Origin: Octopus vulgaris
Lineage: Eukaryota
NCBI GenBank assembly: GCA_951406725.2
Contig: OX597821.1
Location: 17,732,001-17,796,000, forward strand
Length of the DNA: 64,000 bases
Direction: 5' to 3'
Shown: positions 15,952 through 18,900 of the stretch, piece by piece
Layout: the number at the start of each line of letters is the position of its first letter
Numbering within the stretch: position 1 is the first letter of the stretch
Program-made: the position numbers

Positions 15952-18900
15952 TGCCTGTCTGTTTTTGTGTTTGTCACCATCACCATTTGGCAACCAGTGA
16001 TGGTTTGTTTACTTTTCCATAACTTAGCAGTGCGGCAAAGAGACTGATTTAATAAGTACCAGTTTTGTTTTGTTTTTTTTAATAAGTACTGGAGGTAATT
16101 TGTAAGATCGTGCCACCACATGGCCGCAGTTCACTACTTTATACTTACAAGCTGGACAGTTATAGTTCGCCTTTCAGCTCATCTGACATCATCATTCATT
16201 TGTCTGTTATTTGCTTAATAAACTTAGTGTCGGTACATACGAGGGGTGCTGAAAAGTTCCTGGCTTTAGGTAAAAGAAAATACAAGAATATCTATTAATT
16301 ATGATTTTATTCAACATATTCTTCTCTCAGATTTACACACTTATTGCCTAAGCCCTGTAAAAGAACTCAGAAGGTTGGGTCCTGGTCTTGTATATGTATC
16401 CTATCTCTCTATTCATCCTGACGAGGGGCCCATTGGTGTGATATGTATCAATTGCAATCTAAGTATGGTAATGTGCTCCTGAAATGGCCATAGATAATGT
16501 GTTTAGTTTATCCCTTTCGTTACCAACCCGGCTCTGGCTCTGAGTACAAATGTCTTACTTCCATAAGTTTTGAATTAAAATATTCTACCAAACCTTAGTC
16601 AAAATTTATGTTCCTAACACTAGCTTAATGATAACTAAGTTATTTTACTAAATTCTTAGTTATATTTAAAGCAATTGAAAGAAACACAGAGCTTCGGTTT
16701 ATTCCTTATTTCAGCATGACACATTTTTAGTATTTTAAGTATTTTGTAAATTTTTAGTCGTTTTTAGATGGGACGTTCCTATACGTGTTTTTTTCGCATA
16801 CATGTATATTTTTTTACCTTTGAGGGTTTTCTGTATTTGTATGTCTTATATATTTTAATTTTGATTTATATATTATGAAAGCTATGGTAACATTTATTTA
16901 TATATGATGTATGTTGGAGGTTTGATACCGTATATAGAGTTGTTAACTCATTTTAATGTTTGTTCTATGACCAATGTTTAATTATCCTTGTCTCATTTAT
17001 TTGAGCACTTCTTTGATCAAATTTATAGAAAGACAAAGACGAAGACAGGTGTAGGAACAGCAAGCAAGTGTATTAGTTTGACGCTTGGGAAAAATGGAAA
17101 TGTCTTTTCCGTTTCGAGTCTATGCTTTTCCACAGAAAGGGATAAGAGGAAATAAATAGAGAGAGAAGGAAAAAAAACTTGTTAAGTTCAGTGGTCCAAC
17201 ATACATTACGATTACATCGAAAATGTATTTTTATGCTACACGATTAGCAAGACAATTGTATAAAAGCGAAAAACAGGACAACTAAATAAAAAGTACTCTC
17301 GAAAATAAACCAAACTTCATGCTTAATACAGAATATATTCTATATATATTCCGATTTTAGCTATTAGGCTTTCCATATAATTATATTTCACAAATTTCTA
17401 TACTTTCGTAAACTGTAGTGCAAAAAGAGTCGTAATGAACATTTTATGATGTAGACATACCTCCAAGAAACACCAGACAACTAAAGAACAGAATAGAAAT
17501 ACGTTCAATTTGCATTGCAAAGACTTTGCAAGAATAATCTCTGTGTGTGCGTGTGTGTGTGTAATAGCTGCTTCCTCGTTCTCGAGTATAAGATGATGGT
17601 GATAGTACGTCAAGCGATACCTGTGCATGATGCCTTTTAAAGTGAAGAGAGACCTTGCACACAACCAGTCCTACACTCTGAACACCAAAAAAAATCGGAG
17701 TCTTTCTTCACTTCAAGCCCTGTCCTAACGAGGTCTAGGGGTCACTCACTCTCAGTAATATGGTACACCGTGCTTATTTTCTTATTCTCATGTTTCTATG
17801 CTTAGTGGGACCTGTTGTACCCATTGTTGAAAGTGTGTCACTCCTCCACACCGTCACCGTGTTTTCTGCTTTAAAGTCACCAGTTTGTTTGTGATTGTTG
17901 CTGAGACTATTGCTGTCCGTGAGAAATAGCAAGACCAGTTTTGTGTACACAGTACCGAATGACTGTTGATTTTAATGAGTTCATTCGTCCTTTAGCAGGT
18001 TTTGTTTTTCATCCTGCAGTATGTCAAATCACCCTCTTCGCGAAGCATTCTTGGTGGCGGCAGCCATTTAGCATGGACTAGGCTTTCTCTGTACGAGTTT
18101 AATAGCTAGAAATCTTGACGGAACACAGAACAAACATGACTGAGCAATCGACTTTACGTTGAACCCTAAGAGGATTTGTTGGATGGGTTAAACGAATTGC
18201 TACAACTCAAATCAACCAAGATAATATTGTTTCTTCCTCAAGAGACAAAACTCTAATACTGGTGACATTGACTAAAGATGAACGACATCAGTATGGCTGT
18301 GCCAAGAAATCTCTGAAGGGGGACACAACTATTTTGTGTCAGATGTGGTCATGTCATCAAATAGAAATTTGATGACATGACCACATCTGACACAAAATAG
18401 TTGTGTCCCCCTTCAGAGATTTCTTGGCACAGCCATACTGATGTCGTTCATCTTTAGTCAATGTCACCAGTATTAGAGTTTTGTCTCTTGAGGAAGAAAC
18501 AATATTATCTTGGTTGATTTGAGTTGTAGCAATTCGTTTAACCCATCCAACAAATCCTCTTGGCAGAAAAAGCCAAAATCATAAATCTATTTAGGATAAT
18601 GAAAAACACAAGTCAGTTATAAGAAATATAAAATAAGCAAAACAACAGAGAAACAGAGGACCATCTCCAGCCTGACGAGATACTCACAGACCCGAGTTTC
18701 TGAATATTAACTGAAAATGAAAGAAAAGAAGCAATAGGTGCCGTGCCGACACTAAATTTATGATAACAGGAACGATTTTTTTAATAATCTTATTTTCAAG
18801 TGACAATCGTCAAATTGTATCCGGCTCCCGTAAGAAATATGTTAAACTTTGGAATACATACACACATCCCCCCCCCAGACACACACACACACTCACACAA

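What the first reader, a model, noticed from the sequence alone, without database searches (positions are those of the whole stretch)
18136..18858. RACK1 pseudogene folded into an apparently perfect 195-bp hairpin
Seen: a decayed RACK1 copy (stop and frameshift) has 18168-18362 duplicated in inverted orientation after a 4-nt loop. Both arms share the frameshift and look identical, so the inversion is much younger than the decay or is being homogenised. RACK1 similarity resumes at 18793. Known: pseudogene-derived hairpin RNAs yield endo-siRNAs in flies and mouse oocytes, long perfect dsRNA is an ADAR substrate, and coleoid cephalopods edit heavily. Inference: if transcribed, this could be a hairpin-RNA locus acting on the ribosome-associated scaffold RACK1 or on paralogous copies.
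Basis: partly seen in the sequence, partly recalled or inferred. Interest (0 to 1): 0.8.

Follow-up and report, generated by a model that had tools for sequence, protein, structure and literature searches.

The report
Perfect hairpin repeat in dead RACK1 copy
A broken, partial copy of the ribosome-scaffold gene RACK1 carries a flawless 195-base back-to-back duplication of itself. It looks like a very recent DNA-repair scar or an assembly error, and nothing shows that it is a working RNA-silencing gene.

Summary
Observation confirmed. Arms 18168-18362 and 18367-18561 are 195 nt, 100% complementary, with a 4-nt loop. The piece is RACK1-derived: its best solved-structure match is Octopus bimaculoides RACK1, 41 of 53 residues identical. 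It has a stop at 18160-18162, outside the arms, and two surplus bases in a G-run at 18318-18322 that are mirrored in the other arm.

New points. RACK1 similarity runs through the loop to about 18371. So the left arm is the original, and the turn sits on a 4-5 nt micro-inverted repeat. RACK1 residues 79 to about 109 are missing exactly where the copied arm ends. About 220 nt of unidentified DNA follows, then RACK1 residues ~110-135 (18781-18858). No other RACK1 piece is in the window.

This is the anatomy of a snap-back (fold-back) templated insertion at a break. It is less than about 8% of the pseudogene's age.

No reads, RNA-seq, small RNAs, parent mRNA or sister genomes were available. An assembly artefact therefore remains a serious rival, and the hairpin-RNA function is untested. 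Molluscs are reported to lack DICER2 and siRNA-class Argonautes (PMC11114477), which lowers the prior for an siRNA role. Interest is low to moderate.

The parts
18136..18371 (+). RACK1 pseudogene, fragment 1: start codon to about residue 78 (octopus RACK1 numbering). It is continuous, with no intron-like interruption.
   Evidence: Residues 10-62 are 41 of 53 identical to 9eho_hh (E 1.1e-23). Residues 61-78 are 14 of 18 identical. tblastn alignments start at 18136.
18160..18162 (+). In-frame TGA at codon 9. It lies outside the inverted repeat.
18318..18322 (+). G5 run carrying two surplus bases (frameshift). It lies inside the left arm and is mirrored as C5 at 18407-18411 in the right arm.
   Evidence: In one search the two tblastn pieces meet at 18321 in different frames. 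One search shows the mirrored run.
18168..18362 (+). Left arm. This is the original copy, because RACK1 codons 1-11 continue directly upstream of it.
18363..18366 (.). 4-nt loop. It still reads as RACK1-derived sequence.
18367..18561 (-). Right arm, the derived reverse-complement copy. Its first 4-5 nt can also be read as the next RACK1 bases, which gives microhomology at the turn.
   Evidence: Nothing RACK1-like continues beyond 18561.
18562..18780 (.). Filler of unidentified origin. It replaces RACK1 residues 79 to about 109. It holds a 50-nt block (18662-18711) that is 82% identical to 3297-3346.
18781..18858 (+). RACK1 pseudogene, fragment 2: residues about 110-135. Similarity is firm from 18793.
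   Evidence: 9eho_hh 114-135, E 7.1e-10. (18781-18858, E 7e-6).
18859..19331 (.). Context. A (CA)n/(CAAA)n microsatellite, then a repeat element with perfect 28-nt terminal inverted repeats (18922-18949 and 19304-19331). Together they end the recognisable pseudogene.

Best explanation
The locus is a dead, fragmentary RACK1 copy, probably a retrocopy. It suffered a break just after codon 78.

Inferred sequence of events:
1. The free 3' end folded back on itself, pairing through a 4-5 nt micro-inverted repeat and leaving a 4-nt loop.
2. The folded end was extended along its own strand for about 190 nt.
3. The extended end was then joined to downstream DNA. About 90-105 nt of RACK1 were lost, and about 220 nt of other DNA now sits at the junction.

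The product is a 394-bp near-perfect palindrome. It is very young relative to the pseudogene and most likely has no function. If a passing transcript covers it in either direction, it would form a 195-bp perfect RNA stem. In an octopus such a stem would be expected to be hyper-edited by ADAR, like many other inverted repeats.

What is shown: the anatomy, the order of events (decay first, duplication second), and which arm is the original. What is inferred: the break, the snap-back priming, the retrocopy origin and the lack of function.
For: - The arms are an exact reverse complement, 195 of 195, with a 4-nt loop.
- RACK1 codons 1-11 continue upstream of the left arm, but nothing RACK1-like continues beyond the right arm. 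The right arm is therefore the copy.
- Read through the loop, the sequence still follows octopus RACK1 to residue 78. This places the turn at a pre-existing short inverted match.
- The outer end of the copied arm coincides with the point where RACK1 residues 79 to about 109 are missing. That is the deletion-plus-reverse-complement-flank-insertion pattern described for snap-back synthesis (PMC5068794, passages including the S7 figure legend).
- 12 of 53 residues differ from octopus RACK1, implying about 10% nucleotide divergence. With 0 of 195 differences between the arms, the duplication is under about 7-8% of the pseudogene's age.
- No Rfam family matches anywhere in the window.
Against: - No read-level support could be examined, so the inverted arm may not exist in the animal.
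- Templated inserts by polymerase theta average about 10 bp and are error-prone, about 1 error in 30 bp, and snap-back is a minor class (PMC5068794). A 190-nt error-free copy is therefore not a typical TMEJ product and needs a more processive, accurate polymerase.
- The roughly 220-nt filler has no template within the 64 kb, so the event was complex or happened in two steps.
- The microhomology at the turn rests on 4 codons. By my hand estimate, not a tool result, the chance probability is about 0.01.
- Lack of function is a default assumption, not a result.
Confidence: 0.55

Rival explanations
1. Sequencing or assembly artefact. A fold-back chimeric molecule or read, or a faulty local consensus or gap fill, put a reverse-complement copy of the adjacent 195 nt into the assembly. 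The animal's genome would then lack the right arm.
For: - Perfect identity with a tiny loop is what polymerase snap-back during library preparation or amplification produces.
- Palindromic chimeras are a documented problem of amplified long-read data (10.1101/173872 and PMC13265396, search listing and abstract starts only).
- From recall, not checked here: perfect palindromes with a spacer this short are unstable in cells, which makes a standing genomic copy somewhat unexpected.
Against: - The 4-nt loop leaves no room for an adapter.
- The palindrome does not run on as a chimeric read would. It stops after 195 nt, and unique, non-mirrored sequence follows.
- The outer end of the copied arm coincides with a break in RACK1 collinearity that exists even if the arm is removed. 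That would be a coincidence under a random artefact.
- It is the only such structure in 64 kb.
Confidence: 0.3
2. The inverted repeat is real and old, and its arms are kept identical by frequent gene conversion between them.
For: - Both arms share the frameshift and are identical.
- From recall, not checked here: arm-to-arm conversion is known to keep large palindromes near-identical.
Against: - The arms are only 195 nt, with a 4-nt spacer. Such structures are expected to be lost rather than maintained for long.
- The other long inverted repeats in this window have drifted to 84-95% identity, so homogenisation is not the local rule.
- No cross-species data are available.
Confidence: 0.07
3. 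Functional hairpin-RNA locus. The palindrome is transcribed and processed into small RNAs that act on RACK1 or its copies, or it serves as a regulated ADAR substrate.
For: - The stem is long and perfect.
- Under about 10% divergence from the parent, a simulation gives a 93% chance of at least one perfect 21-mer in 195 nt (a model, not an alignment).
- In flies, hairpin-RNA loci arise from inverted duplications of their targets (PMC10317233 and PMC10292708, search listing and abstract starts only).
- Octopus hyper-edits dsRNA heavily (PMC5625713).
Against: - There is no evidence of a promoter or of transcription.
- DICER2 and siRNA-class Argonautes are reported lost in Mollusca, and no endo-siRNA signature was found in an oyster library (PMC11114477).
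- The structure shows no sign of age or conservation. It sits in repeat-rich DNA with no recognisable gene: 10 of 10 large ORFs have no Pfam family.
- RACK1 is an essential housekeeping gene, not the kind of selfish target that known hpRNAs suppress.
Confidence: 0.05

Closest known systems
Snap-back (in cis) templated insertions and fold-back priming at DNA breaks (alternative end joining, SD-MMEJ, fold-back inversions)
   Same: A reverse-complement copy of the sequence immediately flanking the break, a turn at a few bases of microhomology with a short loop, and an accompanying deletion (PMC5068794 passages; PMC5728401 and PMC4912351 seen in the search listing only).
   Different: The copy is about 190 nt and error-free, against a mean of about 10 bp and about 1 error per 30 bp for polymerase-theta inserts (PMC5068794). 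An extra filler of about 220 nt has no nearby template. The classic fold-back inversions of chromosome ends are kilobases to megabases long (recalled).
Drosophila hairpin-RNA (hpRNA) loci and pseudogene-derived endo-siRNA precursors of mouse oocytes
   Same: Gene-derived sequence duplicated in inverted orientation, able to fold into a long stem.
   Different: Transcription, Dicer products and target complementarity were not testable here. The host lineage is reported to lack DICER2 and siAGO (PMC11114477). The spacer is 4 nt and the arms show no divergence, so there is no sign of a maintained gene. The fly papers were seen only as listing and abstract starts. The mouse oocyte work is recalled and was not read.
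Inverted-repeat dsRNA substrates of ADAR (hyper-edited repeats)
   Same: A long perfect intramolecular duplex if transcribed. Octopus has an exceptionally high hyper-editing signal and a high density of dsRNA-forming loci (PMC5625713 passages). This window alone holds 250 inverted pairs of 30 nt or more within 1.5 kb.
   Different: Those substrates are mostly pairs of dispersed repeats with spacers of hundreds of bases and 85-95% identity. This one is single-copy, gene-derived and perfect. Editing was not measured.
Palindromic chimeras in amplified or long-read libraries
   Same: A perfect fold-back of adjacent sequence with a minimal loop.
   Different: Those run to the end of the molecule. 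Here the mirror stops after 195 nt, between unique flanks, and coincides with a pseudogene breakpoint. The papers were seen as listing only.

Membership tests
RACK1 pseudogene | Collinear sequence similarity to RACK1 rather than to generic WD40 repeats | tested here: met
   Three pieces were searched separately. They hit RACK1 chains at collinear residues 10-62, 61-78 and 114-135, with the octopus chain 9eho_hh best for the first two. In one search the top rows are designed multi-repeat WD40 proteins, whose scores sum over many repeats. The RACK1 rows are the best single-stretch matches.
RACK1 pseudogene | Disabling lesions | tested here: met
   Stop at codon 9. Two surplus bases at 18318-18322. 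Residues 79 to about 109 and 136-317 are absent from the whole window (the next best hit has E 0.057 and is taken as chance).
RACK1 pseudogene | Processed (retrocopy) origin: no introns, poly(A) tail, target-site duplications | tested here: inconclusive
   78 codons run without interruption, which suggests an intronless origin. The parent gene structure is not available, and the 3' end, poly(A) and duplications are gone.
hpRNA / endo-siRNA locus | Long inverted repeat that folds into a hairpin | tested here: met
   195-bp perfect stem, -381.5 kcal/mol, z = -41.9.
hpRNA / endo-siRNA locus | Transcription of the locus and Dicer-dependent 21-22 nt small RNAs | not testable with these tools
   No RNA-seq or small-RNA data are reachable. 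No Rfam family matches.
hpRNA / endo-siRNA locus | Contiguous complementarity (21 nt or more) to a target mRNA | not testable with these tools
   The parent mRNA was not obtainable. The protein searches found no close RACK1. There is only a simulation under assumed divergence.
hpRNA / endo-siRNA locus | siRNA machinery present in the lineage | not tested
   Literature only: DICER2 and siAGO are reported lost in Mollusca (PMC11114477, abstract and passages). Which cephalopods were sampled is in supplements I could not see.
Snap-back templated insertion | Insert is the reverse complement of the flank immediately next to the junction | tested here: met
   The left arm is identified as the template by RACK1 continuity.
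Snap-back templated insertion | Microhomology at the priming site | tested here: inconclusive
   RACK1-like reading continues through the loop for 4 codons, which implies a 4-5 nt pairing. The parent's nucleotides are unknown.
Snap-back templated insertion | Accompanying deletion at the same site | tested here: met
   Residues 79 to about 109 are missing between 18371 and 18781.
Snap-back templated insertion | Size and fidelity typical of polymerase theta (about 10 bp, error-prone) | tested here: not met
   About 190 nt with 0 errors, against the figures in PMC5068794. So it works like a snap-back event but is not a typical TMEJ scar.
Fold-back read or assembly artefact | No support in raw reads | not testable with these tools
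   No reads are available.
Fold-back read or assembly artefact | Adapter at the turn, or a mirror that runs on to the end of the molecule | tested here: not met
   The loop is 4 nt. The mirror ends at 18561 and unique sequence follows.

The most novel reading that the evidence does not exclude
A newly born hairpin-RNA gene. A RACK1 retrocopy was converted by one snap-back event into a perfect 195-bp dsRNA precursor in an octopus. If transcribed and processed, it would be an hpRNA-type locus in a mollusc, a lineage reported to lack the dedicated siRNA machinery. It would have been caught at the first step of its evolution, before any arm divergence.
Probability: 0.04. Interest if true: 0.65.

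Novelty: new member of a known kind. Interest (0 to 1): 0.25.

Why it matters
If the structure is real, it is a clean natural example of a long, error-free snap-back duplication in an animal germline. The template, turn point, deletion and relative age can all be read from one locus. It also shows how raw material for hairpin RNAs can arise in a single step.

If it is an artefact, it flags a class of local fold-back errors worth screening for in this assembly.

Either way it says nothing yet about RACK1 regulation. The octopus genome already holds very many dsRNA-forming inverted repeats, so one more is not surprising in itself.

Tried and rejected
- **Full-length octopus RACK1, word-indexed search.** The search for longer proteins gave 1 candidate and no scored hit.
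- **Full-length octopus RACK1, representative library.** The search gave 120 hits at E 0.001 or better. They are generic WD40 or distant RACK1-like proteins. Identity was at most 65%, and that on a 17-residue stretch. So no parent protein or mRNA was obtained, and arm-to-parent nucleotide identity could not be measured.
- **Six-frame Pfam scan of 16-22 kb.** It could not be run because the frames hold stops. I replaced it with tblastn using three RACK1-like representatives out of the 120.
- **Host gene or transposon proteins around the locus.** I took 10 of the 37 stop-to-stop ORFs of 120 aa or more. All 10 had no Pfam family. The other 27 were not scanned.
- **Rfam and tRNA scans.** Both gave 0 hits.
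- **Twin priming by a LINE, or hairpin-primed second-strand cDNA synthesis, as the source of the inversion.** I rejected both on geometry. Either would put the mirrored copies at the 5' end of the cDNA, or far apart, not at an internal point with the 5' end intact. This is reasoning from recalled models, not a tool result.
- **Transposon-excision hairpins.** Considered and set aside, because such footprints are a few bases long (recalled).
- **The filler as an intron.** The AG at 18799-18800 could be an acceptor site, but RACK1 similarity starts upstream of it. Left open.
- **Filler template.** A search within the window gave only a 50-nt, 82% match at 3297-3346.
- **Collections not used.** The bacterial and archaeal genome collection and the phage, plasmid and E. 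coli collections cannot hold this locus.

Full report
**What is in the sequence**

The inverted repeat is exactly as reported. Arms 18168-18362 and 18367-18561 are 195 nt each and 100% complementary, with 4 nt between them. A script confirmed that one arm is the exact reverse complement of the other. As RNA, 18100-18620 folds into one uninterrupted stem at -381.5 kcal/mol. Shuffled sequences average -112.8, and 0 of 100 shuffles fold as well.

It is a one-off in this window:
- blastn of 18136-18366 against the 64 kb finds only itself and its mirror.
- Of 250 inverted pairs of 30 nt or more within 1.5 kb, I saw the 25 longest. This is the only one at 100% identity and the only one with a spacer below 172 nt. 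The rest are 84-95% identical.
- In my own scan for perfect palindromes with spacers of 0-20 nt, I saw the 25 longest of 4,054 records. They are this structure in nine registers, plus (AT)-type microsatellites of 55 nt or less.

**RACK1 identity**

I searched the pieces one by one. I did not build or search a joined or mended model.
- 18163-18321 (53 residues) hits 46 distinct PDB sequences at E 0.001 or better, all RACK1-type. The best is chain 9eho_hh at E 1.1e-23 and the next is 1.5e-13. It aligns to residues 10-62 with 41 of 53 identical.
- 9EHO is the ribosome model deposited with a preprint that worked on Octopus bimaculoides (10.64898/2026.06.25.734654; search listing and passages read). 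I did not try to name the species.
- The frame that opens after the G-run (18297-18377) again hits 9eho_hh best, at E 1.1e-4. It aligns to residues 61-78 with 14 of 18 identical, including an unbroken run of 13.
- 18793-18858 matches RACK1 chains at the collinear residues 110-135, and 9eho_hh at 114-135 with E 7.1e-10. The top rows of that table are designed multi-repeat WD40 proteins, whose scores add up over many repeats.
- Comparing the printouts by eye, 16 of the 19 overlapping residues equal the octopus chain.
- tblastn with three RACK1-like representatives (3 of the 120 returned) finds only 18136-18362, its mirror, and 18781-18858. The next best hit in the window has E 0.057. Residues 136-317 are therefore absent from the 64 kb.

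**Lesions**

Codon 9 is TGA (18160-18162). It lies outside the arms, so only the frameshift is shared by both arms. The frameshift is two surplus bases in the G5 run at 18318-18322, seen as C5 at 18407-18411 in the mirror.

**New anatomy**

Three facts define the event.
1. RACK1 codons 1-11 run directly into the left arm, whereas nothing RACK1-like follows the right arm. The left arm is therefore the original and the right arm is the copy.
2. Read through the loop, the sequence gives SSNRNL where the octopus protein has SSDGNF. The differing codons can each be explained by a single base change. RACK1-derived sequence therefore appears to reach about 18371. The last 4-5 bases of it are complementary to 18358-18362. 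By my hand estimate, chance would give this about 1 time in 100.
3. Residues 79 to about 109 are missing exactly there. In their place stand the copied arm and about 220 nt (18562-18780) that match nothing else in the window except a 50-nt block at 3297-3346, at 82% identity.

**Most likely history**

A break occurred after codon 78. The 3' end snapped back on a 4-5 nt match, leaving a 4-nt loop. About 190 nt were synthesised along the same strand, and the end was then joined downstream with loss of about 90-105 nt.

This is the reverse-complement, in-cis form of templated insertion described for end joining (PMC5068794, passages and the S7 legend read; the figure itself is in a supplement I could not open). 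It is not a typical polymerase-theta scar. That paper gives a mean insert of about 10 bp, roughly one error per 30 bp, and snap-back as a minor class. Here there are 190 nt without an error, so a more processive and accurate polymerase has to be assumed.

**Age**

12 of 53 residues differ from octopus RACK1. Under neutrality this implies about 10% nucleotide change. Arms as old as the pseudogene would then differ at about 39-42 sites, but they differ at none. That puts the duplication under about 7-8% of the pseudogene's age at the 95% level. The estimate assumes the octopus chain stands in for the true parent and that there has been no conversion between the arms.

**Real or artefact**

This cannot be settled here.

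Points in favour of an artefact:
- The arms are perfect and the loop is minimal.
- Palindromic chimeras are known in long-read and amplified libraries (10.1101/173872 and PMC13265396, listing only).
- Short-spacer perfect palindromes are unstable in cells (recalled, not checked).

Points against an artefact:
- The 4-nt loop has no room for an adapter.
- The mirror ends after 195 nt between unique flanks.
- Its outer end coincides with a discontinuity in the pseudogene that remains even if the arm is removed.

I put a real, young event at about 0.55, an artefact at about 0.3, an old homogenised repeat at about 0.07 and a functional hairpin locus at about 0.05.

**Function**

Nothing could be tested. 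No reads, RNA-seq, small RNAs, parent mRNA or eukaryotic genomes are within reach of the tools. No Rfam family and no tRNA are found in the window. None of the 10 large ORFs I scanned, out of 37, has a Pfam family. The surroundings are repeats.

A simulation says that at 10% divergence a 195-nt arm would keep at least one perfect 21-mer to its parent in 93% of trials. This is a model, not an alignment.

Literature:
- DICER2 is reported lost in Trochozoa and siRNA-class Argonautes in Mollusca. No endo-siRNA signature was found in an oyster library (PMC11114477, abstract and passages read). Which cephalopods were sampled is in supplements I could not see.
- O. bimaculoides shows an exceptional hyper-editing signal and an exceptionally high fraction of loci that can form long near-perfect dsRNA (PMC5625713, passages read).
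- Fly hpRNA loci are the closest functional analogue (PMC10317233 and PMC10292708, listing and abstract starts only).

So if the locus is transcribed, ADAR editing is the expected fate and would be ordinary for this genome. An siRNA role is a long shot.

**Origin of the copy**

The 78 uninterrupted codons suggest a retrocopy, as does a pyrimidine-rich stretch about 50 nt upstream of the ATG that recalls the 5' end of TOP mRNAs (my reading, untested). No poly(A), target-site duplication or parent gene structure could be checked.

**Verdict**

The structural inference (young, and later than the decay) is supported. The functional inference is untested and has a low prior. This is a new instance of a known kind of rearrangement, or an assembly error, and it is of low to moderate interest until reads and RNA data are consulted.

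Noticed in passing
18922-19331 (copies at 21465-21868, 21867-22269, 11111-11316, 9701-9907, 9270-9454, 22300-22498, 22822-23003): A ~410-nt element with perfect 28-nt terminal inverted repeats sits in a (CA)n/(CAAA)n microsatellite just after the second RACK1 piece. It belongs to a dispersed family with 72-83% identical copies in the window, two of them back to back. It looks like a MITE-type non-autonomous DNA transposon. A possible ~9-nt target duplication is ambiguous.
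   Followed up: partly
19999-20219 (copies at 12321-12522, 14712-14915, 47789-47990, 7914-8120, 10468-10635; 19791-20218 ~ 27164-26749 at 91%): A dispersed repeat of about 220 nt with many 83-91% identical copies on both strands. It is SINE-like in size, but no tRNA-like part was found by ARAGORN.
   Followed up: no
for example 62548-62779/63323-63554, 22364-22580/22753-22969, 39639-39831/40935-41127, 5760-5913/6089-6242: The window is dense in long imperfect inverted repeats. There are 250 pairs of 30 nt or more within 1.5 kb. The 25 longest have arms of 141-232 nt, 84-95% identity and spacers of 172-1315 nt. This fits the published high density of dsRNA-forming loci in octopus (PMC5625713).
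   Followed up: no
18662-18711 and 3297-3346: A 50-nt block is 82% identical between the filler next to the hairpin and a site 15 kb away, with unrelated flanks. On the minus strand it contains GTGAGT, a splice-donor-like hexamer. Its nature is unknown.
   Followed up: partly
20809-20918 and 43921-44034: (AT)n microsatellites. They are the only other perfect short-spacer palindromes of 46 nt or more in the window.
   Followed up: no
34185-36125 (-): This is the longest stop-free frame in the window (647 codons). It lies in a CA-rich low-complexity array and has no Pfam family, so it is most likely a by-product of the repeat and not a gene.
   Followed up: partly
18040-18135: Upstream of the RACK1 ATG there is a pyrimidine run (about 18083-18090), preceded by a GC-richer stretch. 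It could be the 5' end of a TOP-type mRNA, which fits a retrocopy, or part of a duplicated promoter. No reference was available to test this.
   Followed up: no
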